In this document: positions 2,552 to 61,653 of the stretch, piece after piece
Layout of the letters: every line of letters starts with the position of its first letter
How positions within the stretch are numbered: position 1 is the first letter of the stretch
DNA from: a virus
Length of the DNA stretch: 64,000 nucleotides
IMG/VR virus record: IMGVR_UViG_3300047470_000212
Span: 32,001 to 96,000 of that record
Strand: one strand, 5' to 3'
Position numbers and translations under genes: made by a program
The notes under the pieces: model-generated
What the model was told of the DNA's origin: nothing
The model's database searches: none
What the model saw: only the letters and a program-made list of their open reading frames with translations

Positions 2552-3150
2552 GCGAGGGCCAGGATGTCCCTGACCTTGGTATGAAGGTCGGTCAGGTCGC
2601 CGTCGTTCTTGATGTGGGCGTCGAACCACTTGTCCGGGAGTTCCTTCTCCGACTTGTGGTCGTTGACCGCGCCGACGCCGGGCCGGGTGACCTTGATGAG
2701 CAGGCCGAGACGGCTGTCGATGGCGTGGTGCTCGTTCTCGAACCGCAGGTCGGTGAACACGTACTTCTTCTTGTCGTCCAGGTCCTTGAAGGCGGCGTTG
2801 ACCCACACGTCCTGGCTGATCATTTCCCGGCCGACCTCGGTACCCAGGACCTGGAGCATCCGGCGGATCTCCTCGTAGCGTCGCTTGGCATCCTCCCAGC
2901 CGATGTCGTCCACGATCTCCTGGAGGGACCAGGTACGGCCATCGGCATCGGAGAGGATGACGGGGTTGAGGACGTACAGGGCCTCGCGCAGGATGTCGGC
3001 GAAGGCGACGCGGTTGTATCCGTAGTCGGCCAGGATGCGGGCGACGGAGTCCTTACCGGCGCCCGGGTAGCCGTGGAGTCCGACGAACTGCGGAAGCCAG
3101 GCCTCAATGATGTCGGGGGCGTCGATGGTGTTGGTGGTGGCGGTGCTCAC
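2548..3150 (-). CDS. Deoxynucleoside monophosphate kinase
   Basis: GLHGYPGAGKDS P-loop, AFAD.LRE, R..LQ.LGTEVGR, TDLRFENE, H.SE. Confidence 0.88.
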   Translation of the reverse strand: MSTATTNTIDAPDIIEAWLPQFVGLHGYPGAGKDSVARILADYGYNRVAFADILREALYVLNPVILSDADGRTWSLQEIVDDIGWEDAKRRYEEIRRMLQVLGTEVGREMISQDVWVNAAFKDLDDKKKYVFTDLRFENEHHAIDSRLGLLIKVTRPGVGAVNDHKSEKELPDKWFDAHIKNDGDLTDLHTKVRDILALA

Positions 3151-3497
3151 TTGTTCTCTCCAGTGATGTTGCGGATGTGGTCGCGGACGAGGGGGATGTC
3201 CCAGAGCGCCTTGCGGGCGTTGTCCACGGTCGTGTTGCGCTTGTTCTCCAGGCGGACGAGGGTGTCGAACTGGCCCTTCCACGCGCCGGTCATCCAGTCC
3301 GTCTTCTCGATCAGCGGGGTGACTCTGCTGACCACTTCGAGGACCTGGTCCTCGGTCTCCTTGAGGCGCTTTCGCTCGGCTTCGAGTTCGGCGATCTTCT
3401 CGTCGAGTACGGCCCGGGTCTTGATCAGGCTGCAACCGGCGTATAGGACGAGCGCGCTGTAGACGGTGGCGCCGAAGACGAGGACGTAGTTGTTCAT
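3147..3497 (-). CDS. Membrane-anchored coiled-coil protein
   Basis: N-terminal hydrophobic segment then coiled coil; overlapping start/stop. Confidence 0.65.
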   Translation of the reverse strand: MNNYVLVFGATVYSALVLYAGCSLIKTRAVLDEKIAELEAERKRLKETEDQVLEVVSRVTPLIEKTDWMTGAWKGQFDTLVRLENKRNTTVDNARKALWDIPLVRDHIRNITGENK

Positions 3498-3652
3498 CGG
3501 TGCATCAAGCACCGGGCGGGCACATCCTTGACCGGCGCGAGTCCGTACCACGAGCAGGGTGCCGAGGCGCGGAACCAGATGCTTCCCAGCACGAGGGCGG
3601 CGAGGGCGGTGCCGACCAGGATGCCGAAGGCGGAGTCAGTGCGTCTGCTCAT
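3494..3652 (-). CDS. Small membrane protein (52 aa)
   Basis: MSRRTDSAFGILVGTALAALVLGSIW...; TGATG and ATGA overlaps on both sides. Confidence 0.6.
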   Translation of the reverse strand: MSRRTDSAFGILVGTALAALVLGSIWFRASAPCSWYGLAPVKDVPARCLMHR

Positions 3653-4359
3653 CAGGGAGCAACCCTTCCGTTCTTGACGAAGGCTTCGTAGGTGAGCGGG
3701 AAGTGCTCGGCGAAGGCGACTTCCATGTCCAGGGCCACGCGCTCGATCTCCTCCTGCGGGAAGGACTTGAACGCGGAGTCGTCGGTCTTGGTCCGCAGGG
3801 ACAGGAAGTGCATCAGTGAGCGCGGGTTCGCCGTGGCGTAGAAGGAGGTGAAGAGTCCGACCGGCAGGACGTTGCGGGCGACCTCGCGGGCGATACCGGC
3901 TCTGAGCATCTGCTGGTAGTGGCTGTATGCCGCGTTGTAGACCACGCTCATGGAGTGCTCGGCGCTGAGGTACTGCTCGTCGCTGCCCTGGATGAACTCG
4001 TACTCGCCGGGCTTGCCCTGCTGCACCAGCGGGCGGTAGCGGCCGGGGATGTAGAAGACGGGGTCCAGTTCCTTGTATCTGCCCGAAGTTTCGTTGTAAC
4101 TCCAGCCAGCGCGGTGCCTCATGAACTCGCGGGCCACGAAGATCGGCGCCTCGACGAGGAAGGACAGTTGGCCGTGCTCGAACGGGCTGCCGTGCCGGTT
4201 CTTCATCAGGTAGTTGATCAGGCCCCGGGCCTCTCCCGATTCCGCCGCAGCGGAGCCGAGGGTGGAGACGCGGGCCGCCTGGCAGATCTTCGCGTCGCTA
4301 CCGGCCAGGTTCTCCTGGTCGAGCGCGGCGGAGACGGAGGAGCGGAAGGTCACGGGCAT
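3652..4359 (-). CDS. thyX: Flavin-dependent thymidylate synthase
   Basis: HGSPFEH, APIFVAREFMRHR..WSYNETSGRY, EVARNVLP, NPRSLMHFLSLR. Confidence 0.96.
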   Translation of the reverse strand: MPVTFRSSVSAALDQENLAGSDAKICQAARVSTLGSAAAESGEARGLINYLMKNRHGSPFEHGQLSFLVEAPIFVAREFMRHRAGWSYNETSGRYKELDPVFYIPGRYRPLVQQGKPGEYEFIQGSDEQYLSAEHSMSVVYNAAYSHYQQMLRAGIAREVARNVLPVGLFTSFYATANPRSLMHFLSLRTKTDDSAFKSFPQEEIERVALDMEVAFAEHFPLTYEAFVKNGRVAP

Positions 4360-4366
4360 GTGGTGG

Positions 4367-4792
4367 TCAGTCCCCTTCGTAGGACGAGTAAGCGCTGAGT
4401 GGGATTCCGAAGCGGGGGCCGTAGGGGGTCTCAACCGTTCCTCCGGCCGCGAGTGCTTCCTTCTTGGAGATACGAAACACCATCTCGCGATGGTTGTCAA
4501 CGTACTCAATCCAATCCGTTGACAAGCGGATTCCAGGCATCTCGGTGTCGAGGTCGTACAGGACGTAGCCCTCCCACCGGACGGACTGCTCCGAGACGCC
4601 GACGTGCTGGTACAGCCGCAGCATCCAGTCGAACTGCCCGACCTTGTAGAGGTGGTCGCCCTGGCGCACGTAGACCGGATCGCGGTAGTTGGACAGGCAC
4701 GTGCGGGGCGCCCCGGCCCGGAAGGAGTTACGCCACTCCCACGGCGGCCGGGGCTGCTCCACGTGTGTCACCTTGCGGCGTACGCGCCTCAT
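4367..4792 (-). CDS. Hypothetical phage protein
   Basis: 141-aa ORF, ATGA overlap with the upstream gene. Confidence 0.65.
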   Translation of the reverse strand: MRRVRRKVTHVEQPRPPWEWRNSFRAGAPRTCLSNYRDPVYVRQGDHLYKVGQFDWMLRLYQHVGVSEQSVRWEGYVLYDLDTEMPGIRLSTDWIEYVDNHREMVFRISKKEALAAGGTVETPYGPRFGIPLSAYSSYEGD

Positions 4793-5298
4793 GCGTTCAT
4801 CCGCCCGGCGCGGTTCTCCCGGTCTCCCCGGCCGACCCTGCGCGTCAGTTCACGGCTCAGGAGGGTGTTCTTGCGGTCGGCGGAGTCGTAGACGGCCTGG
4901 AGCATCTTCCGGTAGGCGTAGGCGGCCGTCTTGGCCTCCTGGGCCGCCACGTACTCCGGGTCCTCGTACGCCATCGCCTTGGCCGCCGTCACGGTTTTCT
5001 GGTTGGAGTTCCGGACGGCGGACAGGGCCTTATGCGCTTCGAGTGTGTCGACGGACGACTTTTCGTCCACCTCCGCTGCTGCCAGACGGGCTCCCGTGTA
5101 CTCCACCCACGACGTCGTTCTGGCGAACAGGCTCATCAGGGCGCCGTCGCTTAGTTCGGTGGGATCCTCCGGAAGTTCGGGCACGTCGCCCGGCGGCTTC
5201 GGGGGCAGGTACAGGTCCTCGCGCTCCAGTCTCCTGGTCGCCTTCTGGCTGGGCGTCTGTACCGCTTCCCAGCCCTTCCTCGCTACTGCTCGCGCCAT
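4789..5298 (-). CDS. Hypothetical helical phage protein
   Basis: 169-aa ORF with GC3-rich codons. Confidence 0.7.
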   Translation of the reverse strand: MARAVARKGWEAVQTPSQKATRRLEREDLYLPPKPPGDVPELPEDPTELSDGALMSLFARTTSWVEYTGARLAAAEVDEKSSVDTLEAHKALSAVRNSNQKTVTAAKAMAYEDPEYVAAQEAKTAAYAYRKMLQAVYDSADRKNTLLSRELTRRVGRGDRENRAGRMNA

Positions 5299-6530: not shown

Positions 6531-6874
6531 TACCAAGGCAGAATCTCCTCCGCATCCATTTCCGGATGCGCCAAAGTATGAAGCGACAGGAAAGTCTCTT
6601 CCGACATCGTGATCCAGTTCCTTCCGCTGGCCATCTGAGTGCCGAAGAGCATTTCCCTGCCGTCGAGGAGGGCCTGCTTCTCTGCGGTGATCAGTTCCTT
6701 GTCCTTGAGCGAATACGACACCTTGCTGGTGACCTTGTATTCGATCGAGTAGTCCGTGGTGCGGACGTCGTTCTTCCGGACCCACCCATTCCCGCTACCT
6801 GCATTTACCGTCCCGCCGAGGAGTTCCGCCCCCCGCCTCTCCTGCTTCTGGCTCTTCTTCAACATGTCCGCCAT
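6530..6874 (-). CDS. Holliday-junction-resolvase-like nuclease
   Basis: SQKQE...A..LGG.....SG.....K.DV.....IEYK.T PD-(D/E)XK pattern. Confidence 0.7.
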   Translation of the reverse strand: MADMLKKSQKQERRGAELLGGTVNAGSGNGWVRKNDVRTTDYSIEYKVTSKVSYSLKDKELITAEKQALLDGREMLFGTQMASGRNWITMSEETFLSLHTLAHPEMDAEEILPW

Positions 6875-7007: not shown

Positions 7008-8194
7008 CAGGCGGCCTCGGTATGAAGCCCGTCGGTCTCTTCGGGCTTGGGCCGTCGGCTGACCTTCTTGGTTCCTGCGGTCTGGGCGGCGTCGAGGTCG
7101 TCCTCGGAGATGCTTCGCTCGTCGGCGTGCGTGGACGCGGCCAGGACCTGCTCGTAGAGGTCTTCCTGAAGAGTCAGGTCCTGGCGGAGCCGGTCGAGCA
7201 TGGGCTCCTTGCCCTGCCAGCGCAGAACCGGCTTTCCCTTCTCGTCGAATTCCCCGTTGTCGATCTCGAAGTAGGCGCCCTTGCGCTTGATCACGTCGAA
7301 GAGAATGCCCATGATCATGATTTCCTTGACGGTGTCGAAGTCACCGCGAGCGAAATTCAGGAACGGGGCGGAGCGGAAGTAGGCGTCGATCGTTGCGACC
7401 TGCTGCGGGGCGGCCGACTTGTTCTTGATGGTCTTTACCTTGATGACCTGGCCGACATTTACCTTGCCCTTTCCGGGCCGGGCTTCCTGAATCCACTCGT
7501 CGCGCCGGACTTCCACCCGGGTGTAGAAAGCGTAATTCTTGGCGTTTCCACCGGGAGTCGTGGTCGGCGTACCGTGCGGGGAGAACTTACCGATCGCGTC
7601 GCGGTACTGGTTGATGACGATTCCGAGCAGCGGTCGGTCGTCGGGGTCGGTCATGGACCGCTTGGTCGCGGCGCCGGACTTGCGGAAGAACTTGCCGGTG
7701 AGGCGGGCGCCGAGCGCCATGGTCGCCTCGTCCATGTCCTTCTCGGATTCCTCGTCCGGAATGAGGGCCGGGTAGGAGTCGAGCACGATCATGTCGACCG
7801 AGCGGGACGTCGCGAAGTCGAGCATGGTCTGGTAGGCGAATTCCATGGCCTGGGTCGGGACCACGATGACGCGGTCGTTGTCGACGCCCAGCGCCTCGGC
7901 CTGGTCGGTGTCGTAGTGCTCTGCGGCGATCCACAGGCAGGTGAAGTTCGGGTCCTTCTTCTGGTTGGCGGCCAGCGTCTTGTAGACGATGAACGTCTTG
8001 CCGTGGGACTCGCGGCCGATGACCTCGACCCACTGGTTGCCCGGCCAGCCGCCACCGAGGGCGATGTCCAGGGAGAGGGAGCCGGAGGTGAACCGCTTGG
8101 CCACCTTCATCTCGGAGGCGAAGCAGACGGCGCCTGCACCGTGCTCCTTGTTGACCTTGGCGATGAGAGCGAGGGCGTCCTTGTTGATGCTCAA
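7007..8194 (-). CDS. recA: RecA-family recombinase
   Basis: SGSLSLDIALGGG.P, GRESHGKT Walker A, IVLDS, INQYRD.IG, TTPGG.A..Y. Confidence 0.95.
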   Translation of the reverse strand: MSINKDALALIAKVNKEHGAGAVCFASEMKVAKRFTSGSLSLDIALGGGWPGNQWVEVIGRESHGKTFIVYKTLAANQKKDPNFTCLWIAAEHYDTDQAEALGVDNDRVIVVPTQAMEFAYQTMLDFATSRSVDMIVLDSYPALIPDEESEKDMDEATMALGARLTGKFFRKSGAATKRSMTDPDDRPLLGIVINQYRDAIGKFSPHGTPTTTPGGNAKNYAFYTRVEVRRDEWIQEARPGKGKVNVGQVIKVKTIKNKSAAPQQVATIDAYFRSAPFLNFARGDFDTVKEIMIMGILFDVIKRKGAYFEIDNGEFDEKGKPVLRWQGKEPMLDRLRQDLTLQEDLYEQVLAASTHADERSISEDDLDAAQTAGTKKVSRRPKPEETDGLHTEAA

Positions 8195-8223
8195 CAGGGG
8201 CCCCCGTAGGTATGAAGTCGCAT
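8191..8223 (-). CDS. 10-aa leader ORF MRLHTYGGPC, overlapping the recA start
   Basis: AGGAG RBS 9 nt before the ATG; TGA overlaps the recA TTG (TTGA); contains in-frame CTT-CAT-ACC. Confidence 0.55.
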   Translation of the reverse strand: MRLHTYGGPC

Positions 8224-8267
8224 GTGGTGTTACTCCTGATCCGATAACGGCAATGCCGTAACGAAGA

Positions 8268-8352: not shown

Positions 8353-10311
8353 TCAGGTGGTCACGAGGTCGACGACCTCACACGCCCCTGCGACGCACGC
8401 CAGTTCCTGGGAGCCCACGGTCTGGTCGTAGGTCTCGTAGAAAGCGAGGTCCGACCACTCAACGCGGTGCTCCTCAGTGGCCTGCGCCTCGTACTCCTCC
8501 TTCGTGATCTCCGTGTACGGCGCCTGCACGTACGTGTGATCGCTGTAGGGGAGGAAGGAGACACCACTGATCTCGTCCAGGTGCTCCCAGACCCACTCGC
8601 CGACCTCGGCCCACTCGTGCTCACGGACGCTGATGGTCACCGAAGGCTTGTGCTCACACCAGTGCCGCTGATAGGCCAGCCAGATCTCCAGGTGCTCGAT
8701 CGCGGAGACGTCCTCCCGCACCAGGGCCGTGTCGCTGGCCCGCTGGGGGAAGGTGAACACCCACGCGGAGGAGTTGTAGGCGTCCTCCTCGTGCGGGATC
8801 CCGGCGTCGATCATCACGAACGCGATGGGGTCCTTCTTGTCCACGCGCACACGCCGCTCGTAGAAGCGGGCGTGCTTGGTATGAAGCCCGGACTCGCAGT
8901 CGACCAACTGGGAGACGGTGCCGGAGGGCTTGACGCAGGTGATCGCATCCGAGGACGGGATACCGATGCGCTGGGCCTCGGTCTCGTTGGCGACGCGTGC
9001 CGTCAGGCGAAGGTCGGTCAGCGAGAGGGACGTCAGTCCCATGCCCAGGCTGCCATTGGTGAACTGGTTGCCGAAGACACCGGTGAGGCTGACGCCGAGG
9101 AGTCGCTCCTCCTCCGCGTTCTTGCGCCACTCCTCACGCAGGTACGGGTAGTCCGTCAGCGTGCTCTGCCAGGTGCCGAGGATGGCCGCCAGGCGTACCT
9201 TGCGCTCCAGGTCCTCGACGGTGTCCTCCGGCCGGACGACGACCTCGGACAAGTTGCAGAAACTGAACGGCCGCAAAATGATCTCGCTGCACGGGTTGGT
9301 CCCGTAGTCGGTGTCGGCCGACCGGTGCCCGTACTCAGCGGCCTGACGCTGGGCTGCACCACGGTGGAAGATGCCGCGCTCACCCGAGCCGGACGCGACG
9401 ATCGAGTCCCACTCCTGGTTGAAGTCCTCGTAGCGCATGCCGTCGTAGTAGACCGCACTGTTGTTGGCGAGGGCTCGGTAGGCGTGATCGACCCACCACT
9501 CCCCTGCCTTCGCCTGCGCCATCTCCTGGTCGTCCAGGTCGGACAGGGAGATCATCGCCGAGCGCCGGACGCCACCGACCACAACGACGCTGGCTATCTT
9601 GCACGCCAGGTCGTGGACCTCGATCGGACGGAACTGGCGGCCCTTGGCGCCGTGGAACAGCGCGGTGGTGAAGTTGAACAGGTCGTCGAGCGGACCCGGT
9701 CCGGAGGCTCGCCCTCCGAAGGTATGAAGACGGGCGCCCGCCGGTCGCACCTTGGACAGGTCCCACTGCCGTACTTCACCGGCCCACAGACCCTCCAGCA
9801 GCGAGCGGAAGGCCAGTCCCCAACCTTCCTTGCTGTCCTCGACCACGATCACGTCGGAGGCAGCCACCAGGGCGTCGGGGACGGCGGGGAGTTGGTCGGT
9901 GTACTTCTTCTCGACGCTGTAACCGACGCCAGTGCCGTTCATGAGGATGTAGAGGAGTTCGTCCAGGGCGCGGGCGTCCTGCAACGGCAGGTACGAACAG
10001 TTGAAGCCCGCGATATTCGAGCGGTCCAGGGCAGCACCGGCAGTCATCACCGCGCGCATGGACGGCATGACCTCGTGGGTTAGCACGGCCTGGCGGACGG
10101 CCTCGACGACCTCCGGCTCGGGGGTGTAGTCGTGCTTGTTCTTCAACTGGCCGATCATGAAGCCGACGTAGCGGTCCACGGTCTCGGTCCAGGTCTCGCG
10201 GCGATTCGCGTCCTCCAGCCAGCGGCTGTATCGGCTCTTCGCGATGAAGGAGCGGTAAGGGTCGGCGATGTCGCCGGAAGGGGTGAGCAGGGAGGTCACC
10301 AGGAAATCCAT
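8353..10311 (-). CDS. nrdJ: Class II (B12-dependent) ribonucleotide reductase
   Basis: RRETW.ETV.R, MPSMR, FNC, GTGVG, VVVGGVRRSA, TNPCSEI, FCNLSEV, CVKPSGT, EHKPS.T, C-terminal CxxxxC. Confidence 0.96.
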   Translation of the reverse strand: MDFLVTSLLTPSGDIADPYRSFIAKSRYSRWLEDANRRETWTETVDRYVGFMIGQLKNKHDYTPEPEVVEAVRQAVLTHEVMPSMRAVMTAGAALDRSNIAGFNCSYLPLQDARALDELLYILMNGTGVGYSVEKKYTDQLPAVPDALVAASDVIVVEDSKEGWGLAFRSLLEGLWAGEVRQWDLSKVRPAGARLHTFGGRASGPGPLDDLFNFTTALFHGAKGRQFRPIEVHDLACKIASVVVVGGVRRSAMISLSDLDDQEMAQAKAGEWWVDHAYRALANNSAVYYDGMRYEDFNQEWDSIVASGSGERGIFHRGAAQRQAAEYGHRSADTDYGTNPCSEIILRPFSFCNLSEVVVRPEDTVEDLERKVRLAAILGTWQSTLTDYPYLREEWRKNAEEERLLGVSLTGVFGNQFTNGSLGMGLTSLSLTDLRLTARVANETEAQRIGIPSSDAITCVKPSGTVSQLVDCESGLHTKHARFYERRVRVDKKDPIAFVMIDAGIPHEEDAYNSSAWVFTFPQRASDTALVREDVSAIEHLEIWLAYQRHWCEHKPSVTISVREHEWAEVGEWVWEHLDEISGVSFLPYSDHTYVQAPYTEITKEEYEAQATEEHRVEWSDLAFYETYDQTVGSQELACVAGACEVVDLVTT

Positions 10312-11250: not shown

Positions 11251-13229
11251 TACTTAGCCTCACTCCAGCGGTCAACGATTTTCACGTCCGACGACAGCGG
11301 CACCTTGAGCAGTTTCTGGATGTCCTCGCCGAGCATGGCTTCCCGAACAAGGTCGGCGGCCTCTTCGGCGCGGTCCTCCGGAGCGAGGACGACGAGTTCG
11401 TCGTGCACCGAAAGGATCAGGCGGATTTCGTTCGGCAGGGAGTTGTTCAGCCGGATCATCGCCAACTTGATCAGGTCGGCTGCGCTTCCCTGGATCAGGC
11501 TGTTGACTGCCTGGCGCTCGGCGCCCATTCGCAGGCCGTTGTTCTGCGAGAGCATGAGCGGCAGGCGACGCTTGCGGCCGAGCAGCGTGCGGATGTACGG
11601 AGGTCGCCGCGACCGGCAGACCTGGATGACCCTTTCCTTGAAGGCGTAGATCTCCGGGAACAACTTCTGGTGCATCTCCATGAAGCGCTTGGCTTCCTTG
11701 ACGGAGATCTTCGCCATGCTGGCGACCTTGTCCGGGCCAGCGCCGTAGACCACGGCAAAGTTGATGCCCTTTGCGACCTGCCGGAAGTCGATACACGTAC
11801 GGTCGCCGCTCTTTACCCGCGCCATGAATTCCTGCGGGTCCACGCCCATAAGCGCGGCAGCGGTGGCCGAGTGAGGGTCGACGCCGTTGTGGAATCCCTT
11901 GTAGAGATCGCCTCGACCGATGAAGTGCGCGAGCACCACGAGTTCGATCTGCCCGTAGTCCGCGACGACCAGTTTGTATCCGGCCGGTGCGACGAACAGG
12001 CCACGGATTCGCTTACCGAGGTCCGTGTCCGGGCGCGGGATGTTCTGGAGGTTGGGTTCCCGGCAGGAGAATCGTCCGGTCACCGTTCCGTACTGGACGA
12101 AGTCGGCGTGGATCCTGCCGTCGAAGATGCGGCACGGCTTCTTCGGGTCGTCCTCGATACCGAGGTAGGACAGCGGGTAGTCGAGCAGCTTGCTGACTTC
12201 CGCGTACTCCAGCAGTTTCTTGACGACCGCGTTGTTCTCGTGCTTCTCCAGGCTGTCGGCGTCGGTGGAGTAGTCCTTCCACTCCAGCTCCTGCCCTGCC
12301 TCGCGCTTCTTCTTTCCGCCGTCGGTCGGCTTGGTGGGGCGCAGGCCCTGGCCGCCGTCCTTCTTGGGGGCGTACAGGACTGCGGCCTTCTGGGCCGGGG
12401 CGTTGAGGTTGAACTGCTGTCCGGCAGCGCGGTAGATGTCGGCCTCGATCTCGACCAGGCGGGCGCTCATGTCGCGCACCAGCTCCTGCATGGCCATCTG
12501 GTCGACAGGTGCTCCGGTGATGCCCATGTCGAGCAGCACGCCGAGGACGTCCTCTTCCAGGCGCCGGACGTTGATCAGGCCCTGGTCGTGGATGCGCTTC
12601 TGGAACTTTTTCCAGAGGAGCCAGGTGTACTTGGCGTCCATGTACGCGTAGTGCGCGACCTTGCCGAAGGGGTGGGCCTCGACGCACTTGCCGACGTTCT
12701 CGGTGTCGTAGTCGACCTTGTAGTACTTCTTGACGAGTTCCTTGAGGCCCTTCTGCTTGAGGTTTTCGTCGAGGAGCCACTGGAGGACGATCGTGTCGCT
12801 GTACTGCGGGGGTGCGATCTCGCCCCAGTACTTCGCCGTGGAGATGAGGTCGAAGGTCGCGTTGTGCGCGATCTTGATCTTGTCCTCGGCGAAGAACAGC
12901 GGCTTGAGGATGGAGAACACCTCGCTCGGGAGCATCTGCTCCGGCGGGGCGTCGTAGACAGCCGGGATGGCGTCGAACTTCCCGGTGATCTTGTTCTTCT
13001 TCTTCGTGGCCTTGCTCAGCAGGACGTCGCCGTTGGGGTGGCCGAACGGGATGGCCACAGCCATGCCGTCGGTGGCAAGGCTCATCCAGTTGGCGACGTT
13101 CTGCGTCGGGACGTTCCGGTTGGGGCCGAAGGTCTCGATGTCGAAGGAGAAGGCCGGGCGCTCCATGAAGCGCTCGACCACGGTATGAAGTCGGTCGGGG
13201 GTGAGGATGACGCTGTTCCTGATGGTCAC
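11250..13229 (-). CDS. polA: DNA polymerase, family A, with 3'-5' exonuclease
   Basis: FDIET, AHNATFD, YAYMDA; TVTGRFS..EPNLQNIP, ADYGQIEL, R..AK.INF..VYG, NSLIQGSAAD, VHDE. Confidence 0.96.
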   Translation of the reverse strand: MTIRNSVILTPDRLHTVVERFMERPAFSFDIETFGPNRNVPTQNVANWMSLATDGMAVAIPFGHPNGDVLLSKATKKKNKITGKFDAIPAVYDAPPEQMLPSEVFSILKPLFFAEDKIKIAHNATFDLISTAKYWGEIAPPQYSDTIVLQWLLDENLKQKGLKELVKKYYKVDYDTENVGKCVEAHPFGKVAHYAYMDAKYTWLLWKKFQKRIHDQGLINVRRLEEDVLGVLLDMGITGAPVDQMAMQELVRDMSARLVEIEADIYRAAGQQFNLNAPAQKAAVLYAPKKDGGQGLRPTKPTDGGKKKREAGQELEWKDYSTDADSLEKHENNAVVKKLLEYAEVSKLLDYPLSYLGIEDDPKKPCRIFDGRIHADFVQYGTVTGRFSCREPNLQNIPRPDTDLGKRIRGLFVAPAGYKLVVADYGQIELVVLAHFIGRGDLYKGFHNGVDPHSATAAALMGVDPQEFMARVKSGDRTCIDFRQVAKGINFAVVYGAGPDKVASMAKISVKEAKRFMEMHQKLFPEIYAFKERVIQVCRSRRPPYIRTLLGRKRRLPLMLSQNNGLRMGAERQAVNSLIQGSAADLIKLAMIRLNNSLPNEIRLILSVHDELVVLAPEDRAEEAADLVREAMLGEDIQKLLKVPLSSDVKIVDRWSEAK

Positions 13230-13312: not shown

Positions 13313-14122
13313 TCAGTCGTTCAGGATCTCGCGGGCGATCTGCTTGAGTTCGTTCCGCGTGTTGACGTGCAGGACGTCCTCGTCGTAGGCCTTGGAGTCG
13401 AACTCCTCCAGGTCCTCCTCGGTCAGCGGGTCGATGTCCCAGTCGTCGAGGAGGTCCCGCTCCTTGACCGGGGTGATGTAGTACGTGGTCTTGTTGTTCT
13501 TGCTCTGCTTGGAGACGCTGAAGTACAGGTCGTCCCGGTTGATCGGGGCGGTCTTCTTGTCCTTGGAGTAGTTCTTGAGGATGTCGGCGACCATCGGACC
13601 GAACTGCCACACCTTGATGACCGGGTCCTCGGGGTCGGTGAAGTCGACGACGTTGAACGCAATCTGCTGGGACGGCTTGTCACCCGCGTCATCGCACAGC
13701 GGGCAGCGGCTCTCCAGGCACGTCCAGGACCGCTTGCCCTTGCGCTCGATCCAGTGCTGGAGGAAGACCAGGAACGGCTCCTCGTCCAGGATCTTCACCA
13801 CCACGGCCTCGTTGGTGACCTTGAAGTTCTCCGGGAAGCCGGACGTGGCGGACTTGGTCTTCTCGTAGGAACCCCAGCCCTTGCCACCGACCTTCGGCGC
13901 AGGCTCGTTGTCCTCCTCGTCGTCCTCCTCGGAGGCGCGGCGCGAGCGGCGGGAGGCGGGGGCCTCCTCGGTATGAAGCGACTCGCGGCGCGAGCGGCGA
14001 GAGCCCCGGGCCGGGCGCTCGGTCTCCTCCTCGGCGTAGCCGTGCTCCTCCTGCTCGTCGTCGGCGGGGGTGTAGGCCTCGGTCGCGGCAGCGGTACGGC
14101 GGCGGGTCAGAGTGCGGGGCAT
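13313..14122 (-). CDS. gp32-like single-stranded DNA-binding protein
   Basis: QHW...C...CPLC zinc site, FNVVD, acidic tail; located next to polA. Confidence 0.7.
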   Translation of the reverse strand: MPRTLTRRRTAAATEAYTPADDEQEEHGYAEEETERPARGSRRSRRESLHTEEAPASRRSRRASEEDDEEDNEPAPKVGGKGWGSYEKTKSATSGFPENFKVTNEAVVVKILDEEPFLVFLQHWIERKGKRSWTCLESRCPLCDDAGDKPSQQIAFNVVDFTDPEDPVIKVWQFGPMVADILKNYSKDKKTAPINRDDLYFSVSKQSKNNKTTYYITPVKERDLLDDWDIDPLTEEDLEEFDSKAYDEDVLHVNTRNELKQIAREILND

Positions 14123-14361: not shown

Positions 14362-14822
14362 TGCTCGGCCAGCCTCTTGAAGAGGTCGATGACGCGGGCG
14401 GTGAACTGGGTGCCCTTGATGGGCTTCTGGTGCGAGACCAGAACGCCCTCCTCGTGCGCGATGCGGACGATGCCCTCGACCTGCTCGCGGGTGTAGAGGC
14501 GGCGACGGCCGCGCGGGTCGTCGTCCTTGCCCGGGGACTGGAAGGTGGACTTGGGAATGACTCCCTCCCTCTCCCACTTGCGGATGGTCACCGGCTGACG
14601 GCTCAGTGCCTTGGCGAGTTGACCGAGGGTGAAGAACTCAGTCTCCACACCGCCCACCGTGTACTTCCGGGGCTTGTGGTCCCAGTCGGCCGCCGACGTG
14701 GCGGCCTTGGTATGAAGCCCGTTGCGGTTGTGGTGGCGGACGATCGGCTTGGTGGACCCGGGGTAGAAGGCTTCCCCGATCTCCGCGAAGTCCTGCTCGA
14801 TGCTGGCGAGTGCAGTGCTCAT
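14358..14822 (-). CDS. MerR-like HTH DNA-binding protein
   Basis: FTLGQLAKAL.RQPVTIRKWEREGVIP...RRLYT..QV. Confidence 0.8.
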   Translation of the reverse strand: MSTALASIEQDFAEIGEAFYPGSTKPIVRHHNRNGLHTKAATSAADWDHKPRKYTVGGVETEFFTLGQLAKALSRQPVTIRKWEREGVIPKSTFQSPGKDDDPRGRRRLYTREQVEGIVRIAHEEGVLVSHQKPIKGTQFTARVIDLFKRLAEQ

Positions 14823-15397: not shown

Positions 15398-15751
15398 TTA
15401 CGGCTTCTTCGGATCCATTCGAACCGTGCGCCGGGCCGCGTAGGCGCGGGCGTCGTCGTCCAACTGATCCATGCGGACTTCAGTCTCGGCCACGTCCTGG
15501 TAGACGGTGACCACGCGGTGGTCGGCCGGGTCGACGATGGCGACGATGTCCCCTCGTACGTGGCGCCACTGTCCGGGGACGCGGGCCGAGGGGTAGGTAT
15601 GAAGCGGCTTGTCGGCCGCGAGGAGAACATCCTCGCTGGTCCAGCCCTTGGCGGCGGCCTGCTTCTGCGCGTGGTAGGTCAGCCGGTACTCCGGCGACTC
15701 GGTGGCGGGAGCGGTCCAGGTGATGCCCAGAGCTTCGGCGATGGTGGCCAT
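15398..15751 (-). CDS. DUF4258-like protein (RelE/BECR-type RNase fold)
   Basis: YRLT.HA..Q....G.T.EDV....P..Y.....Q.RH..G.I.AIVD....RVVTVY; GGAG RBS. Confidence 0.65.
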   Translation of the reverse strand: MATIAEALGITWTAPATESPEYRLTYHAQKQAAAKGWTSEDVLLAADKPLHTYPSARVPGQWRHVRGDIVAIVDPADHRVVTVYQDVAETEVRMDQLDDDARAYAARRTVRMDPKKP

Positions 15752-17985: not shown

Positions 17986-18031
17986 TGGCGGCCTCCGCCC
18001 AGGTATGAAGCCGGTTGTTCATGGGGTGCAT
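17972..18031 (-). CDS. 19-aa mini-ORF MHPMNNRLHTWAEAANASA
   Basis: TGATG overlap with the primase stop; in-frame CTT-CAT-ACC. Confidence 0.5.
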   Translation of the reverse strand: MHPMNNRLHTWAEAANASA

Positions 18032-20685: not shown

Positions 20686-20930
20686 CAGGCTCGCTCCGCT
20701 TCGGCGCGGAGCCAGATATGAAGTCGTCCGTGCCGGAGTTCTGTGATCACACGGTGCTCGCGCACGCGGAATCCGAGGGCGGCAGCCTTGTAGACCGCGA
20801 GGAAGAGCAGCCGCTTGGCGGTCGCACGCTGCTCGGGGAACCGTCCGGTGATCGTCGCCGGGATCTCGTCCTTGTAGAGAACCGACAAGACCTCGTCCTC
20901 GAAGGGGAGGACCATCTGCTCATGCGGCAC
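20685..20930 (-). CDS. Hypothetical protein
   Basis: GGAGGAG RBS before GTG 20930. Confidence 0.6.
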   Translation of the reverse strand: MPHEQMVLPFEDEVLSVLYKDEIPATITGRFPEQRATAKRLLFLAVYKAAALGFRVREHRVITELRHGRLHIWLRAEAERA

Positions 20931-22770: not shown

Positions 22771-22814
22771 TCGGCGACTCCGAGGAAGCGATAAGTATGA
22801 AGCGATAGCGTCAT
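22767..22814 (-). CDS. 15-aa leader ORF MTLSLHTYRFLGVAE
   Basis: TGA overlaps the initiator GTG (GTGA); in-frame CTT-CAT-ACT. Confidence 0.55.
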   Translation of the reverse strand: MTLSLHTYRFLGVAE

Positions 22815-22865
22815 GGTAATGTGCTCTCTATCTCGGGGTTTGTGGTGGGCCTCGGGGTGTGGTGG

Positions 22866-48411: not shown

Positions 48412-49272
48412 TTACGAGTACAGTCCACGCTGGTTCTGGGCGGCATTACCGACGCCCAACTGGCCCCGAATCTTGGCGTACTCGGACATAGGCATGGCCT
48501 GGAGGTCCTGGAGGGAGTACGACTTGTGCCCCGGATCAGTGTCCATAGGTCCGGTGGTGGAATAGCCCGTGGGGCTCACACCACGCATGGTGGCTCGCTG
48601 CTGAATAGCGGCCTGCTGGACCGACTCCAGGATAGCCTGGGTCTTTGCCTTGACTGTATTGATGCTTGCCTCTACCTCGTCCGGCGAATTACCACCGACG
48701 AAGTCGAGAAGTTCCGGAGCGATGTTCTCGGACTCCTCGCCCACACGCTTCTGAATGTAGGTCTGGAGGTTGTTGAACTCCTGCTCCTTGGCGAACAGGG
48801 TGCGCTCCTGCTCACGCTCGCGCTCGAACTGCTCGAAGCGGGAAGTCCACTCCTGCTCCTTCTGCGCCAGCAAGTCCTTCGCGGACATGTCCTGCTCCGC
48901 CAGCGACTTGGCCTGAGTCTCGGCGTCCTTGCGACGCTTCTCCTCGTCGGCCTGCGCGGCCTCACGGGCCTTGCGCTGGTCCTCGATCTCCTTGAGGAAC
49001 TTGTTGTTCTGCTCCTCGATCTTGGAGATCCGGCCGTACAACTTGTCCTTCTCCTCCTGCCGCGCCTTGGCGATGTCCTCGGCGGTGAAGCGAGGTTCGG
49101 CAGGCGTGGCGGCGGGCGGCTCGACGACAGCGGCCGGTACGACGATGACAGGGTCGCCACCTTCACCGGGCTGCGGAGCCCCACCCGCGATGGGGTGGAT
49201 CGGACGGCCATCCTTGCGGTAGCCAAGTACGGTCTGAGCGGGCACGGAAATGCCCTGGGTATGAAGCGACAT
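48412..49272 (-). CDS. Capsid scaffolding protein
   Basis: Coiled coil; C-terminal M.M.EYAK.R; between portal and capsid. Confidence 0.8.
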   Translation of the reverse strand: MSLHTQGISVPAQTVLGYRKDGRPIHPIAGGAPQPGEGGDPVIVVPAAVVEPPAATPAEPRFTAEDIAKARQEEKDKLYGRISKIEEQNNKFLKEIEDQRKAREAAQADEEKRRKDAETQAKSLAEQDMSAKDLLAQKEQEWTSRFEQFEREREQERTLFAKEQEFNNLQTYIQKRVGEESENIAPELLDFVGGNSPDEVEASINTVKAKTQAILESVQQAAIQQRATMRGVSPTGYSTTGPMDTDPGHKSYSLQDLQAMPMSEYAKIRGQLGVGNAAQNQRGLYS

Positions 49273-56187: not shown

Positions 56188-56346
56188 ATGGAAACCAACG
56201 CGCTTCATACCTCGGGGCTCACCGAGCCCCAGAGCAACATGACCGTCAGCCTGACGAACAACCGCATGGAGGACAGCCGCTGGAACCGACTCCTCACCAT
56301 CCTCTTCACCCCGCAGGACGAGGACGCCCAGGCAGCCACCGCCTAG
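56188..56346 (+). CDS. Small protein (52 aa), possibly leaderless
   Basis: TAGGGT -10-like box 7 nt before the ATG; in-frame CTT-CAT-ACC at codons 6-8. Confidence 0.55.
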   Translation: METNALHTSGLTEPQSNMTVSLTNNRMEDSRWNRLLTILFTPQDEDAQAATA

Positions 56347-58961: not shown

Positions 58962-59244
58962 CAGGCACCTCGTCGAATCTGTGGGCGTTGTCGCGGATCG
59001 AGTCCGTGGTGAGCGCGTCCTCTGTTCCCCGGACGGCTTCCAGCAGGGCTTCTCTTTCACTGCGCCCGGTATGCCGCCAGCGGCCGAACACGAGGCCCTT
59101 TCGCCATATCCGGATAATCCAGGAGTGGGACCGGCGGTACGGCGGGTCCAGTTCATCGGTAGGCGCGGTATGAAGCAACGGTGTCTTTGGGGCCAGGTCG
59201 ATGAACTGAACGAAGAAAGGCCCCACGTCATGGGTTCTAGGCAT
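58945..59244 (-). CDS. Hypothetical phage protein
   Basis: MPRTHDVGPFF...E.DPPYR.S; in-frame CTT-CAT-ACC. Confidence 0.6.
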   Translation of the reverse strand: MPRTHDVGPFFVQFIDLAPKTPLLHTAPTDELDPPYRRSHSWIIRIWRKGLVFGRWRHTGRSEREALLEAVRGTEDALTTDSIRDNAHRFDEVPDELVV

Positions 59245-60619: not shown

Positions 60620-60808
60620 CTACAGGGAACTGCCTGCCTCGGCATTCGAGCCTACCGGCATTCCCCCGTCGGTTTCCCATGGCTGGGATCCGGCGAATTG
60701 GTCTGCGGAAAGGAGAGCGCCGCGCAGGGGTGCCCCGTTGACGGTGAATGCGTAGCCGCCTGCGTAGGCGTCGCCGGTCGCGGGGATCGGTTCAGGTGTC
60801 TTCGGCAT
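60620..60808 (-). CDS. Small hypothetical protein
   Basis: GGGAGGG RBS; 62 aa. Confidence 0.45.
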   Translation of the reverse strand: MPKTPEPIPATGDAYAGGYAFTVNGAPLRGALLSADQFAGSQPWETDGGMPVGSNAEAGSSL

Positions 60809-60998
60809 GGGAGCCCTCCCGGGCGGCCTCGAAGCCGGAGCGGAGCCGGGTCATCTTGACCTTGTAGGTGCGGAGCCGGGACATGTGCTCGCAGGCTGAC
60901 TCGACTATGGCGCCTACCTCTTCGAGGCAGCGGTCGAGCAGGTCTTCGATGTCGGCGATGTCGTCGCGCGTCTCGCGCGTCTGGGGCAGCAGTGGCAT
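60792..60998 (-). CDS. Small coiled-coil protein
   Basis: GGAGGAG RBS; MPLLPQTRE... Confidence 0.55.
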   Translation of the reverse strand: MPLLPQTRETRDDIADIEDLLDRCLEEVGAIVESACEHMSRLRTYKVKMTRLRSGFEAAREGSHAEDT

Positions 60999-60999
60999 C

Positions 61000-61344
61000 T
61001 CAGGAACTCCTCCGTCGGCGCGGCCGGGGAGTCTGGTCGCTCTGGAACAGGTCCAGCACGTCTTCGAGGACGTCGGTGACGGTGGCCTGCGCGGCGACGC
61101 TGTCCTGGGTGGCCTGCACCAGGTCTCGGGCGGCGGTGACCATCTGCTCGGCGAGGGGGACCACTTTCTCCGTAAGCGCGCGGAGCCTCTTGTTCTCTTC
61201 CACCTCGCGGCGGTAGGCCTTGCCAGAGACGACGACTTCAGTGACGAAGACCGCGAAGATGAAAGCCGCGATCGGGCCGAGGACGAGGGGGTTGTCAACG
61301 GACAAGCCTCCGCCCCCTGAGTCCGAAGCGAGAAAAACAAACAT
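61000..61344 (-). CDS. Membrane protein with coiled coil
   Basis: One TM segment, then V.G..Y.R..E coiled coil. Confidence 0.6.
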   Translation of the reverse strand: MFVFLASDSGGGGLSVDNPLVLGPIAAFIFAVFVTEVVVSGKAYRREVEENKRLRALTEKVVPLAEQMVTAARDLVQATQDSVAAQATVTDVLEDVLDLFQSDQTPRPRRRRSS

Positions 61345-61410
61345 CCCGGGTACCGCCCGTCGCTTAATTGTGCTTGCGACTTAAGGATACCCGGGATGCC
61401 GTAATTGCTT

Positions 61411-61653
61411 TTAGATATGAAGACCGGCCTTCTTAAGCTGATTCTTGGCCTTGATCCAGCCAGGGGTCGCTCCGGTTAGCCCGCTGATGCAGACCGTGTT
61501 CCCCTTTGGGTCGACCCACCGGATGTGGTTTCCTCCGGTGACTGTCACCGTCCATTTGTCCTTTCGCGCCTTCTTTACGACCTTCTCGATCTCCTTGTCG
61601 GCTCCGAGTCGGCCAGAGCTGCTGCTGGCCACTGGTGCACCCTTGCGGGCCAT
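61411..61653 (-). CDS. HicA-like (dsRBD-fold) mRNA interferase
   Basis: VK.A....W.V...GGNH.....P.G..V.........LKKAGL; AAGGAGG RBS. Confidence 0.65.
   Translation of the reverse strand: MARKGAPVASSSSGRLGADKEIEKVVKKARKDKWTVTVTGGNHIRWVDPKGNTVCISGLTGATPGWIKAKNQLKKAGLHI

What the first reader, a model, noticed from the sequence alone, without database searches (positions are those of the whole stretch)
2580..61422. Genome-wide, frame-locked heptamer CTT-CAT-A(C/T): a candidate translation-coupled control system
SEEN: TATGAAG (CTTCATA on the coding strand) starts at 2580, 6577, 7021, 8211, 8880, 9723, 13184, 13972, 14711, 15598, 18004, 18375, 19984, 20717, 21498, 22796, 23206, 24788, 35070, 37803, 37985, 41818, 45937, 49260, 59169 and 61416. 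One opposite-orientation copy at 56203 lies in a plus-strand gene. That is 27 by hand count; a rough base-composition estimate at about 65% GC gives about 1 per strand. Every copy is on the sense strand and in frame as Leu(CTT)-His(CAT)-Thr/Ile (23 ACN, 4 ATN). It never reads as TTC-ATA or TCA-TAC, although Phe-Ile is common. Most genes carry one copy, spread across replication, metabolism and virion genes, often near a start or a coupled stop. LHT written with ordinary codons also occurs (CTG-CAC-ACG at 17675-17683, CTG-CAC-ACC at 62699-62707), so the signal is nucleotide plus frame, not peptide alone. KNOWN: CTT and CAT are rare codons in high-GC actinobacteria. CUU-NNN-N is the architecture of +1 frameshift heptamers (Ty1 CUU-AGG-C, prfB CUU-UGA-C). 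RelE and B. subtilis Rae1 cleave mRNA in a ribosome- and frame-dependent way. Mycobacteriophage L5 stoperators are oriented DNA sites, but are not frame-locked. INFERENCE: a single switch throttles many lytic genes at once. It could be a stall/+1-slip site (tRNA-Leu GAG can re-pair CUU to UUC, exposing AUA), a ribosome-dependent cleavage site for a phage RNase, or, less likely, a stoperator-like DNA site.
Basis: partly seen in the sequence, partly recalled or inferred. Interest (0 to 1): 0.96.

Follow-up and report, generated by a model that had tools for sequence, protein, structure and literature searches.

The report
Frame-locked three-codon signal in phage
A temperate Streptomyces phage and its relatives keep about 45 copies of one exact nine-letter word, always on the coding strand and always read as the same three codons, and whole lineages have changed one letter of it at all sites together, which points to an undescribed gene-control signal read during translation, possibly by a small phage RNA-cutting enzyme.

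Summary
CTTCATA occurs 27 times in the window and 48 times in the 107-kb phage. All copies are on the sense strand, and all 40 that fall inside my gene calls are in frame as CTT-CAT-A(C/T)N. A codon shuffle expects 0.1 and a synonymous shuffle 1.9. The full word is g-CTTCATACC.

At least 27 sites are orthologous in relatives whose flanks are only 70-90% identical. One set of lineages reads CTT-AAT-ACC at the same places, so His becomes Asn. A distant phage has its own in-frame word, CTT-CTA-GVC. What is kept is therefore nucleotides plus frame, not a peptide.

Near-cognate words are commoner in another frame, yet that frame has no true sites, so the frame lock is itself selected. Sites cluster just after start codons, before stops, and in 6- to 28-codon leader ORFs coupled to recA and other genes.

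A HicA-like gene (window 61411-61653) is present in every motif-bearing genome tested and absent from two motif-free relatives.

Best reading (about 0.45): a translation-coupled mRNA signal, probably cut or bound by this nuclease. Main rival: stoperator-like repressor sites on DNA. Other first-stage readers noted the same motif in overlapping windows of this genome.

The parts
2578..2586 (-). motif site CTTCATACC, codon 189 of 200 of a dNMP-kinase-like gene
6575..6583 (-). motif site CTTCATACT, in a short ORF (MSEETFLSLHT...) whose stop overlaps the next start (TAATG)
7019..7027 (-). motif site CTTCATACC, codon 390 of 395 of recA
8191..8240 (-). 10-codon leader ORF MRLHTYGGPC with an AGGAG SD; motif at codons 3-5 (site 8209-8217); its TGA overlaps the recA TTG start. 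In AAT-type relatives the same start is fused in frame to recA as M-x-L-N-T
8878..8886 (-). motif site, codon 472 of 648 of class II ribonucleotide reductase
9721..9729 (-). motif site, codon 191 of 648 of ribonucleotide reductase
13182..13190 (-). motif site, codon 14 of 659 of family A DNA polymerase
13970..13978 (-). motif site, codon 49 of 269
14709..14717 (-). motif site, codon 36 of 154
15596..15604 (-). motif site, codon 50 of 117
18002..18010 (-). motif site in a 19-codon ORF MHPMNNRLHTW... whose TGA overlaps the ATG of the primase gene
18373..18381 (-). motif site, codon 207 of 322 of DnaG-type primase
19982..19990 (-). motif site CTTCATACT, codon 85 of 421 of DnaB-like helicase
20715..20723 (-). 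motif site CTTCATATC, codon 70 of 81
21496..21504 (-). motif site CTTCATACG, codon 26 of 219
22767..22830 (-). 15-codon leader ORF MTLSLHTYRFLGVAE; motif at codons 5-7 (site 22794-22802); its TGA overlaps the GTG of the next gene. The leader is conserved in the one AAT-type relative that aligned (G002), where it carries CTTAATATC
23204..23212 (-). motif site CTTCATACG, codon 317 of 409
24786..24794 (-). motif site CTTCATATA, codon 103 of 176
35068..35076 (-). motif site, codon 170 of the 1452-aa ORF (tape-measure-like by size)
37741..37827 (-). 28-codon bridging ORF MAFTDRLHTWGPG... between two coupled tail genes (site 37801-37809). G003 has a different 9-codon ORF, MRLHTRAVA, at the same junction; G004, G002 and G005 have none
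37983..37991 (-). motif site, codon 944 of 997
41816..41824 (-). motif site, codon 5 of 287 (V-A-N-D-L-H-T), AGGAG SD upstream
45935..45943 (-). motif site CTTCATATC, codon 48 of 271
49258..49266 (-). motif site, codon 3 of 286 (M-S-L-H-T), AGGAG SD upstream
56203..56211 (+). the only + strand copy; sense and in frame at codon 6 of a 52-codon + strand ORF (56188-56346) upstream of a serine recombinase gene
59167..59175 (-). motif site in an open frame outside my gene calls; kept as CTTCATACC even in the AAT-type relative G005
61411..61653 (-). 80-aa HicA-like gene, candidate reader of the motif. Invariant T-G-G-N-H, alpha-beta-beta-beta-alpha model. Its own last three codons are a motif site (61414-61422, CTTCATATC then TAA)

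Best explanation
The 9-mer CUU-CAU-ACC (CUU-AAU-ACC in sister lineages, CUU-CUA-GVC in a distant relative) is a cis-acting signal in the mRNAs of a group of temperate Streptomyces myoviruses. It works only when ribosomes read it in that frame. The most likely reader is the phage's own HicA-like small endoribonuclease (window 61411-61653). That enzyme would cut, or possibly only bind, the message at this codon-phased word, mostly within the first codons of a gene, near its stop, or in a short leader ORF translationally coupled to the next gene. That would tune or shut off about 45 genes at once, above all the replication and recombination module. Shown here: the motif's excess, strand lock and frame lock; purifying selection at synonymous positions; the concerted lineage-specific change of one base; enrichment at starts and stops; and co-occurrence with the HicA-like gene.
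For: 1. Excess and frame lock. 40 of 40 copies inside gene calls are in frame 0, against 0.1-1.9 expected. The same holds in relatives: 39/0/0 in G003 and 36/0/0 for CTTAATA in G002. The third variant in G006 gives 28/1/1 against 1.6 expected.
2. The frame lock is not a by-product of mutational access. Near-cognate 9-mers are commoner in the frame xxC-TTC-ATN-CCx (44 at distance 2, 316 at distance 3) than in frame 0 (15 and 140), yet that frame holds no true site.
3. The motif follows the coding strand. Each of six genomes has exactly one reversed copy, always sense and in frame in a reversed small ORF, and these ORFs belong to two unrelated families.
4. Nucleotide-level selection and concerted switching. 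38 of 47 G000 sites are kept in G003, and 27 have CTTAATA(C/T)C at the orthologous place in AAT-type genomes, while flanks are 70-90% identical. Relatives sort cleanly into a CAT or an AAT type.
5. Position in genes. In the CAT and AAT genomes, 19-38% of sites lie within 9 codons of an SD plus start, against a null of 8-9%. 22-30% lie within 16 codons of a stop, against a null of 8%. Mini-ORFs of 6-28 codons are built around the motif, with stop-start overlaps such as TGATG, GTGA and TAATG. The motif stays at codons 3-5 after the recA-region start whether that start opens a leader ORF or recA itself.
6. The candidate reader. The 80-aa protein gives a weak HicA Pfam/PHROG match (E 0.004 and 0.0007). 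Its AF2 model is alpha-beta-beta-beta-alpha, and its best-probability fold matches are HicA structures 1whz and 6g26_F. T-G-G-N-H is invariant. Among G000 genes it shows the largest gap between CAT-type identity (75-85%) and AAT-type identity (38-40%). It is one of 18 G000 genes shared with the motif-bearing G006 but absent from the motif-free Alone3 and GiJojo, and it is the only gene on both lists.
7. Precedent. E. coli HicA cleaves with a strong preference immediately before the first codon position, and ribosome-dependent toxins cut preferentially near the 5' ends of ORFs (PMC8546651). Rae1 cuts inside short ORFs in a translation-dependent way (PMC10351889).
Against: The HicA-like match is below Pfam's cut-off, and the fold matches are weak (E about 0.1-1). 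The link between HicA-like and motif type rests on few independent lineages. A Streptomyces prophage (L159) carries the long, insert-bearing form of the protein, as AAT types do, yet has the CAT motif, so overall similarity does not track specificity. Only a few residues do: I/L after N-H, and G/A versus P versus M after G-L-T. More distant HicA-like homologues (L146-L149) show no such motif in the 11-14 kb held. A 9-nt specificity would be unusual for an 80-aa HicA fold. The G006 motif lacks the start and stop enrichment. It is not obvious why a phage should keep 45 self-cleavage sites.
Confidence: 0.45

Rival explanations
1. Stoperator-like DNA sites. An immunity repressor of this temperate phage binds the asymmetric 9-10-bp word at about 45 places and blocks RNA polymerase in an orientation-dependent way, silencing the prophage. 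The sites co-evolve with the repressor. The frame lock would be a side effect of fitting the site into tightly packed genes.
For: The phage group is temperate. G002 is classed as a provirus. A HicA-like homologue that looks like G002's copy is named from a 951-kb Streptomyces sp. BK022 contig. L159 is a prophage end in Streptomyces sp. NPDC002088, where GC rises from 0.64 to 0.71 past the last phage gene. Integrase and recombinase genes are present. The copy number, the one-orientation rule relative to transcription, the bias to gene boundaries and the lineage-specific motif variants all match Cluster A stoperators (PMC6550527). In two of the three variants the other frames contain a stop or TTA (CT-TAA-T, C-TTA-A, C-TTC-TAG), which explains their frame lock. 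An earlier scan note (e1-3263117) describes a frame-locked dispersed DNA dyad in another phage.
Against: The CAT variant has no stop or forbidden codon in the other frames, and its near-cognates are commonest in another frame, yet 0 of about 45 sites, including at least 8 lineage-specific gains, lie there. The rooted sheath tree places CAT types basal, so the lock is not simply inherited from an AAT ancestor, although the root is uncertain. Intergenic copies come with their own SD, start and coupled stop, which a DNA site does not need. No repressor that co-varies with motif type was found; the HTH protein tested (window 53858-54118) does not track type.
Confidence: 0.2
2. Rare-codon stall without a nuclease. 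Two consecutive rare, wobble-read codons (CUU plus CAU, AAU or CUA) placed early in ORFs or in coupled leaders slow ribosomes. Expression of marked genes then depends on the supply of a tRNA, partly phage-encoded, much as bldA/TTA control works in Streptomyces.
For: The middle codon is always a rare A/T-ending codon. The phages carry a tRNA that reads it: tRNA-Asn(GUU) in all; an odd long-arm tRNA-His(GUG) in G000, G003, G004 and eight further contigs, all CAT-type; and tRNA-Leu(UAG) in G006. The frame lock and the start-proximal and leader-ORF placement fit a translation-speed device.
Against: Rarity alone does not need an exact 9-mer. The third codon is conserved as letters (A-Y-C for Thr or Ile; G-V-C for Ala, Gly or Asp) across different tRNAs, and its wobble C is kept. 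CTT-CAC, CTC-CAT and similar pairs are not enriched. G001 is CAT-type but lacks tRNA-His, and CAT types keep tRNA-Asn yet have no AAT sites. A switch of the controlling tRNA does not explain why all sites changed together.
Confidence: 0.15
3. Programmed +1 frameshift or abortive slip at CUU-NNN-N, as in prfB or Ty1.
For: All three variants begin with the shifty CUU followed by a rare codon. In G006 the +1 frame gives an immediate UAG at every site.
Against: The variants share no feature. In G000 the +1 and -1 frames after sites run no shorter than controls (median 44 versus 33 codons, and 90 versus 63). In AAT types it is the -1 frame, not the +1 frame, that hits a stop. There is no SD-like stimulator upstream. 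Conservation extends two bases beyond a heptamer. Sites at codons 3-9 of essential genes such as DNA polymerase would yield only waste products.
Confidence: 0.05
4. A peptide-level signal (Leu-His-Thr as a tag or processing site), or a mere codon-usage or compositional artefact.
For: The LHT tripeptide is about 10-fold over-represented.
Against: Orthologous sites read L-N-T in sister lineages and L-L-(A/G/D) in G006. 33 of 36 LHT use the same rare codons. No shuffle approaches the observed counts.
Confidence: 0.02

Closest known systems
Stoperators of Cluster A mycobacteriophages (L5 gp71-type immunity repressor sites; PMC6550527, PMC9283540)
   Same: Dozens of copies of one short asymmetric word per temperate phage genome. 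One orientation relative to transcription. Bias to gene boundaries. Motif variants that differ between lineages.
   Different: Stoperators are 13 bp, lie mostly in intergenic spacers and are not reported as frame-locked. Here the word is 9 nt, exactly three codons, always in frame, and even intergenic copies sit in dedicated mini-ORFs. No cognate repressor was identified.
T4 RegB endoribonuclease and its GGAG targets (from my own knowledge, not checked in a paper here)
   Same: A phage-encoded sequence-specific RNase would act on many of the phage's own mRNAs near translation starts to shift the expression programme.
   Different: RegB cuts a 4-nt word inside Shine-Dalgarno sequences, not a 9-nt in-frame coding word, and belongs to a different protein family.
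HicA and RelE-type mRNA interferases (PMC8546651)
   Same: Small RNases of toxin-antitoxin origin. E. coli HicA cuts preferentially just before the first codon position, and ribosome-dependent toxins cut near the 5' ends of ORFs. Both features mirror the motif's frame lock and start-proximal bias. The candidate protein has the HicA fold and the conserved His.
   Different: Known interferases have 1-5-nt, loosely defined specificities, and their sites are not positively selected in a genome. No HicB-like antitoxin was recognised next to this gene.
Bacillus subtilis Rae1 (PMC10351889, PMC12407103)
   Same: Translation- and frame-dependent cleavage inside short, cryptic ORFs that controls downstream genes.
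   Different: Rae1 is a NYN/PIN-like host enzyme with a handful of known targets tied to stalled ribosomes. It has no genome-wide conserved word.
bldA tRNA / TTA codon control in Streptomyces (from my own knowledge)
   Same: A rare Leu codon marks a regulon at the level of translation in the same host genus.
   Different: bldA control needs only one codon in any context. Here an exact three-codon word with conserved wobble letters is required.

Membership tests
HicA toxin family (PF07927), for the 80-aa protein at window 61411-61653 | Sequence match to the family profile above the curated threshold | tested here: not met
   Pfam score 17.8 bits against a cut-off of 27, E 0.0038. PHROG 353 'toxin' E 0.0007. 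No PDB sequence match.
HicA toxin family (PF07927), for the 80-aa protein at window 61411-61653 | dsRBD-like alpha-beta-beta-beta-alpha fold | tested here: met
   The AF2 model has H20-31, E35-39, E43-47, E53-58 and H64-76, with mean pLDDT 70. The highest-probability Foldseek matches are HicA structures: 1whz (prob 0.93, TM 0.49/0.54) and 6g26_F (prob 0.80, TM 0.49/0.60), but the E-values are only 0.1-0.3.
HicA toxin family (PF07927), for the 80-aa protein at window 61411-61653 | Conserved Gly-x-His catalytic motif at the start of strand 2 | tested here: met
   T39-G40-G41-N42-H43 is invariant in 11 homologues spanning the three motif types. That this His is the catalytic one is my reading from the known HicA G-S-H motif.
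HicA toxin family (PF07927), for the 80-aa protein at window 61411-61653 | Adjacent HicB antitoxin gene | tested here: not met
   The neighbouring genes (window 61000-61305 and 61894-62373) have no Pfam match. The co-varying 64-aa protein g013 is beta-beta-alpha-beta but gave no HicB match, and it fails co-variation in L159.
HicA toxin family (PF07927), for the 80-aa protein at window 61411-61653 | Endoribonuclease activity | not testable with these tools
   Needs an in vitro or in vivo cleavage assay.
Stoperator system (Cluster A mycobacteriophages) | Many copies of an asymmetric site in one orientation relative to transcription | tested here: met
   47 copies plus 1, all sense; the reversed copies lie in reversed genes.
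Stoperator system (Cluster A mycobacteriophages) | A cognate immunity repressor that binds the site as DNA | tested here: inconclusive
   No repressor was identified. Small reversed genes next to the integrase have no family match. Binding itself is not testable here.
Stoperator system (Cluster A mycobacteriophages) | Sites independent of reading frame, mainly intergenic | tested here: not met
   All sites lie in open frames in frame 0; intergenic copies lie in mini-ORFs.
Programmed +1 frameshift heptamer (prfB or Ty1 type) | A functional product or a defined stop in the +1 frame, plus a slow zero-frame A-site codon | tested here: not met
   The +1 frame after sites is no shorter than controls in G000 and G002. 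Only G006 has an immediate +1 stop. The A-site codon is rare in all variants.

The most novel reading that the evidence does not exclude
The word is a true translation-coupled control element of a new kind. An exact three-codon sequence is recognised only while it occupies the ribosome's decoding sites, by a phage factor (the HicA-like protein or another) whose specificity has been retuned at least twice: CAU to AAU, and a separate CUA-GVC version. Some 30-45 sites per genome have followed each change. The phage would then carry a private, re-programmable in-frame code word that gates replication, recombination and some virion genes through start-proximal sites and coupled leader ORFs.
Probability: 0.3. 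Interest if true: 0.93.

Novelty: new variant of a known kind. Interest (0 to 1): 0.82.

Why it matters
If the signal is read during translation, it would be the first case I know of in which a virus keeps a genome-wide, positively selected, frame-dependent sequence word. It would also be a natural example of about 30 cis sites and their reader changing specificity together. It would give HicA-type nucleases a defined, long, codon-phased target, which bears on the open question of whether HicA depends on the ribosome (PMC8546651). It would offer an orthogonal three-codon on/off tag for gene control in Streptomyces. Even if the word proves to be a DNA-level stoperator analogue, it would extend that silencing strategy from mycobacterial siphoviruses to large Streptomyces myoviruses, and it would leave the frame lock to be explained. 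The system can be tested directly, because relatives lie as prophages in strains named in public records (Streptomyces sp. BK022 and NPDC002088).

Tried and rejected
1. The literature search for the 9-mer returned only primers. Searches on Streptomyces phage plus HicA, and on in-frame rare-codon motifs in phages, found no description of this signal.
3. Replication-, packaging- or Chi/KOPS-type DNA polarity signals are rejected, because the reversed copies follow reversed genes.
4. A promoter is rejected. About 70% of sites are mid-gene, several lie right after start codons, and there is no -10-like T at the key position.
5. Lsr2-like binding to the AT-rich core is rejected. The phage Lsr2-like gene (L104:7732-8097) co-occurs with the motif, but minor-groove AT binding would not give a 100% strand and frame bias.
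6. An antisense guide RNA is rejected. The only sense-strand copy of the complement lies inside a reversed coding ORF.
7. g013 (L104:3083-3274), the second type-associated gene, has no family match, no informative fold match or atlas lead, and is only 54% identical in the CAT-type prophage L159, so I dropped it as a specificity partner.
8. The apparent motif CTTCAAG in L146 is just Phe-Lys (TTC-AAG) in preferred codons. L147-L149 show nothing consistent.
9. Isolated phages in the INPHARED collection hold no homologue of the HicA-like protein. Alone3 and GiJojo have neither the motif nor the gene.
10. The conservation table is conditioned on the target also being a site, so I do not use it as evidence.

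Full report
**What is there**

The window is bases 32001-96000 of a 107,080-bp virus record with direct terminal repeats and 64.6% GC. It is a myovirus: it has sheath and tube genes, and its nearest isolated kin are the Streptomyces phages Alone3, LuckySocke and GiJojo, matching at only 74% over 355 bases. About 94% of its genes lie on the - strand.

The whole genome has 48 copies of CTTCATA, 47 on the - strand and one on the + strand.

I built a simple gene caller from codon usage and Shine-Dalgarno (SD) sites. With it, all 40 copies inside called genes are in frame as CTT-CAT-AYN. Codon shuffling expects 0.13 in that frame and synonymous shuffling 1.9. Nearly half of all CAT codons (40 of 84) and a quarter of CTT codons (40 of 164) sit in the motif. 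All 40 in-frame CTT-CAT pairs are followed by A. LHT is ten times over-represented, and 33 of 36 LHT tripeptides use these exact codons.

The information profile shows a 9-mer: positions 1-7 are invariant, position 8 is C (40) or T (7), and position 9 is C in 41 of 48. There is a weak G before it and a weak (T/G)-A-G after it. In other words the motif is exactly three codons.

**Relatives**

A sheath-protein scan of IMG/VR found 62 related loci. Those with at least 76% sheath identity fall into two classes. One class carries CTTCATACC. The other has none of it but carries CTTAATACC with the same strand bias. Complete genomes confirm this: G001, G003 and G004 have 27-31 copies of the CAT 9-mer, while G002, G005, G007 and G008 have 22-37 copies of the AAT 9-mer or its close variants.

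The AAT word is also frame-locked: 36/0/0 by frame in G002, against 0.7 expected.

The sites are orthologous. Of the 47 G000 sites, 38 are kept in G003. 27 have CTTAATA(C/T)C at the aligned position in an AAT-type genome, although the flanks are only 70-90% identical. So one base has changed at some thirty sites together, turning His into Asn. This rules out a peptide signal. It shows selection on the nucleotides, including two T-ending wobble positions that compositional drift in a high-GC genome would be expected to erase.

Lineage-specific gains also exist. For example, CTGCACACC in all five relatives has become CTTCATACC in G000. All such gains are in frame 0.

A sheath tree rooted on distant relatives places CAT types basal and AAT types nested, with two changes. 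The root sits on long branches and is not secure. AAT-type genomes of the G005 clade retain one CAT site. No CAT-type genome retains an AAT site.

**A third variant**

A profile of the HicA-like protein (described below) pulled in a 100-kb phage, G006, with 59.8% GC. It lacks CTTNATA but has CTTCTAG 32 times on the gene strand. By frame the counts are 28/1/1, against 1.6 expected from synonymous shuffling. Its consensus is CTT-CTA-G-V-C: position 8 is never T and position 9 is C in 27 of 32.

Alone3 and GiJojo (53% GC) show no such word.

**Is the frame lock a by-product?**

For the AAT and CTA variants, the other frames contain a stop codon or the near-forbidden TTA. For the CAT variant they do not.

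In G000, 9-mers at Hamming distance 2 or 3 from the motif are commoner in the frame xxC-TTC-ATN-CCx (44 and 316) than in frame 0 (15 and 140). 18 copies of CTTCATC and 11 of CTTCATG in that frame each need one change to give the heptamer, yet no site exists there. ATA (38 codons) and TCA (37) are about as frequent as CAT outside the motif (44).

I conclude that the frame is part of what is selected.

**Strand**

Each of six genomes has exactly one reversed copy. It always lies in frame near the start of a small reversed ORF with high GC3. These ORFs belong to two unrelated families. The motif therefore follows the coding strand, which excludes replication- or packaging-polarity signals.

**Place in genes**

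Sites are about 2.4 times enriched within 60 nt of gene starts in all genomes. In the CAT and AAT genomes, 19-38% lie within nine codons of an SD plus start, against a null of 8-9%. 22-30% lie within 16 codons of a stop, against a null of 8%. Because the sites are orthologous, the genomes are not independent tests. G006 does not show this bias.

Copies that looked intergenic lie in mini-ORFs with their own SD and a stop that overlaps the next start:
- MRLHTYGGPC lies before recA.
- MTLSLHTYRFLGVAE lies before the next replication gene.
- A 28-codon ORF lies between two tail genes.
- Relatives have ORFs as short as V-R-R-L-N-T-stop.

Other first-stage readers had noted three of these leader ORFs, and I checked them. 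The recA case is telling. In AAT types the same SD and ATG open recA itself (M-P-L-N-T...). In CAT types a frame difference makes a 10-codon leader coupled to recA. In both, the motif stays at codons 3-5. At the tail-gene junction G003 has a different 9-codon ORF (MRLHTRAVA) and three genomes have none, so such cassettes come and go.

Sites are dense in the replication and recombination module: RNR, RecA, PolA, SNF2 helicase, primase and DnaB. They are sparser in virion genes. In genome coordinates they are almost absent from 5.2-23.3 kb (one imperfect copy) and absent from 56.8-67.1 kb.

**Candidate reader**

I compared every G000 protein with three CAT-type and two AAT-type genomes.

- The largest type-associated gap belongs to an 80-aa protein (window 61411-61653): 75-85% identity in CAT types and 38-40% in AAT types. 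This holds even though G001 is otherwise the most distant genome.
- The second largest gap belongs to a 64-aa protein, g013. The reverse comparison starting from G002 gives the same two genes.
- The 80-aa protein has a sub-threshold HicA match and an alpha-beta-beta-beta-alpha model. HicA structures are its highest-probability fold matches, though with weak E-values. T-G-G-N-H is invariant. Its own last codons are a motif site.
- It is one of 18 G000 genes shared with G006 but absent from Alone3 and GiJojo, and the only gene on both lists.

There are caveats.

- A prophage end in Streptomyces sp. NPDC002088 (L159) is syntenic with G000 genes g005-g032, and host-like GC begins just past them. 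It has 8 CAT-type sites, all on the gene strand and most of them clearly in frame by GC3. Yet it carries the long form of the protein, with the insert, which is otherwise seen in AAT types.
- So only a few residues track motif type: I or L after N-H, and G/A, P or M after G-L-T. The number of independent lineages is small.
- g013 fails in L159, at 54% identity.
- More remote HicA-like genes show no motif.

**Why an RNA and translation reading**

Strand lock, frame lock, a word of exactly three codons, start-proximal bias and dedicated translated mini-ORFs are what one expects of a signal seen by, or next to, a translating ribosome.

Culviner et al. report that E. coli HicA cuts with a strong preference just before the first codon position. 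They say this is hard to reconcile with ribosome independence. They also report that ribosome-dependent toxins cut near the 5' ends of ORFs (PMC8546651). Rae1 cuts inside short ORFs in a translation-dependent way.

The third codon is conserved as letters across different amino acids (A-Y-C; G-V-C). This argues for direct base recognition by a factor rather than a pure tRNA-supply effect.

The +1 slip idea finds no common feature in the shifted frames.

**Why not certain**

The group is temperate. Cluster A stoperators share the copy number, the orientation rule and the lineage-specific variation. I found no repressor, and the frame lock speaks against this model, but no experiment separates the two.

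The phage tRNAs match the middle codon in each type. tRNA-Asn(GUU) is present in all. A long-arm tRNA-His(GUG) with G-1 and C73 is present in G000, G003, G004 and eight further contigs, all CAT-type. tRNA-Leu(UAG) is present in G006. This fits any model in which these codons must be translated. G001, however, is CAT-type without tRNA-His.

**Verdict**

My weights are:
- about 0.6 that the signal acts at the RNA and translation level;
- about 0.35-0.45 that the HicA-like protein reads it;
- 0.2 for a stoperator-like DNA site;
- 0.15 for a nuclease-free rare-codon stall;
- 0.05 for frameshifting.

I found no published description.

Noticed in passing
genome 101737-101822 (- strand) = L104:5738-5822, outside the window: An 86-nt tRNA-His(GUG) with a long variable arm (a class II body with a Leu-like D arm), G-1 encoded upstream and C73. 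Rfam scores it as tRNA at 48 bits. It occurs in G000, G003, G004 and eight further contigs, all CAT-type, and is absent from the AAT types and from G001.
   Followed up: partly
L104:6995-7129 (- strand) = genome 102995-103129: A full-length c-di-AMP (ydaO) riboswitch inside the phage, between tRNA genes (71.9 bits against a gathering score of 38). Its position suggests the phage puts a downstream gene under host c-di-AMP control.
   Followed up: no
window 55002-58553: A tyrosine integrase-like gene (- strand) lies next to a 694-aa + strand serine recombinase with a C-terminal DUF4096 (IS4/5 transposase-like) domain. The serine recombinase has close homologues (84-94% identity) only in G002 and G005. 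It has no match in G003 or G001 and only a 30% match in G004. The region looks like a swappable integration module.
   Followed up: partly
L159:1-12400 (Streptomyces sp. NPDC002088 contig) and G002: This 105-110-kb myovirus group with terminal repeats also occurs integrated in Streptomyces chromosomes. In L159, phage synteny (g005-g032) ends at about 12.4 kb, where GC rises from 0.64 to 0.70-0.72.
   Followed up: partly
L104:7732-8097 (- strand): A phage-encoded Lsr2-like nucleoid protein (Pfam Lsr2_DNA-bd, PHROG 1223). It is shared with G006 and L159 but absent from Alone3 and GiJojo.
   Followed up: no
whole genome, gene strand: Other strand-biased over-represented 7-mers: AGCAGAT (28 observed against 3.5 expected; 4 on the other strand), TCTACAA (24 against 3.3; 1 on the other strand) and AGCAGTT. 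AGCAGTT and AGCAGAT recur in several relatives. Their frames and meaning were not examined.
   Followed up: no
window 59167-59175 and its orthologue in G005 (G005:C1:27986-27994): AAT-type genomes of the G005 clade keep one CTTCATACC at a site orthologous to a CAT-type site. It is either a relic of a CAT ancestor or a recombined patch.
   Followed up: partly
G006 (L128-L132): The distant motif-bearing phage carries 17 tRNA genes and a tmRNA gene (tag GNVEKVDFLSGSRDLVLA).
   Followed up: no
L102:7223-7600 (- strand): A gene with a phage ProQ C-terminal-like domain (Pfam E 5e-17), a possible RNA chaperone. Homologues are seen in G003 and G001, but not in G004 or the AAT-type genomes.
   Followed up: no
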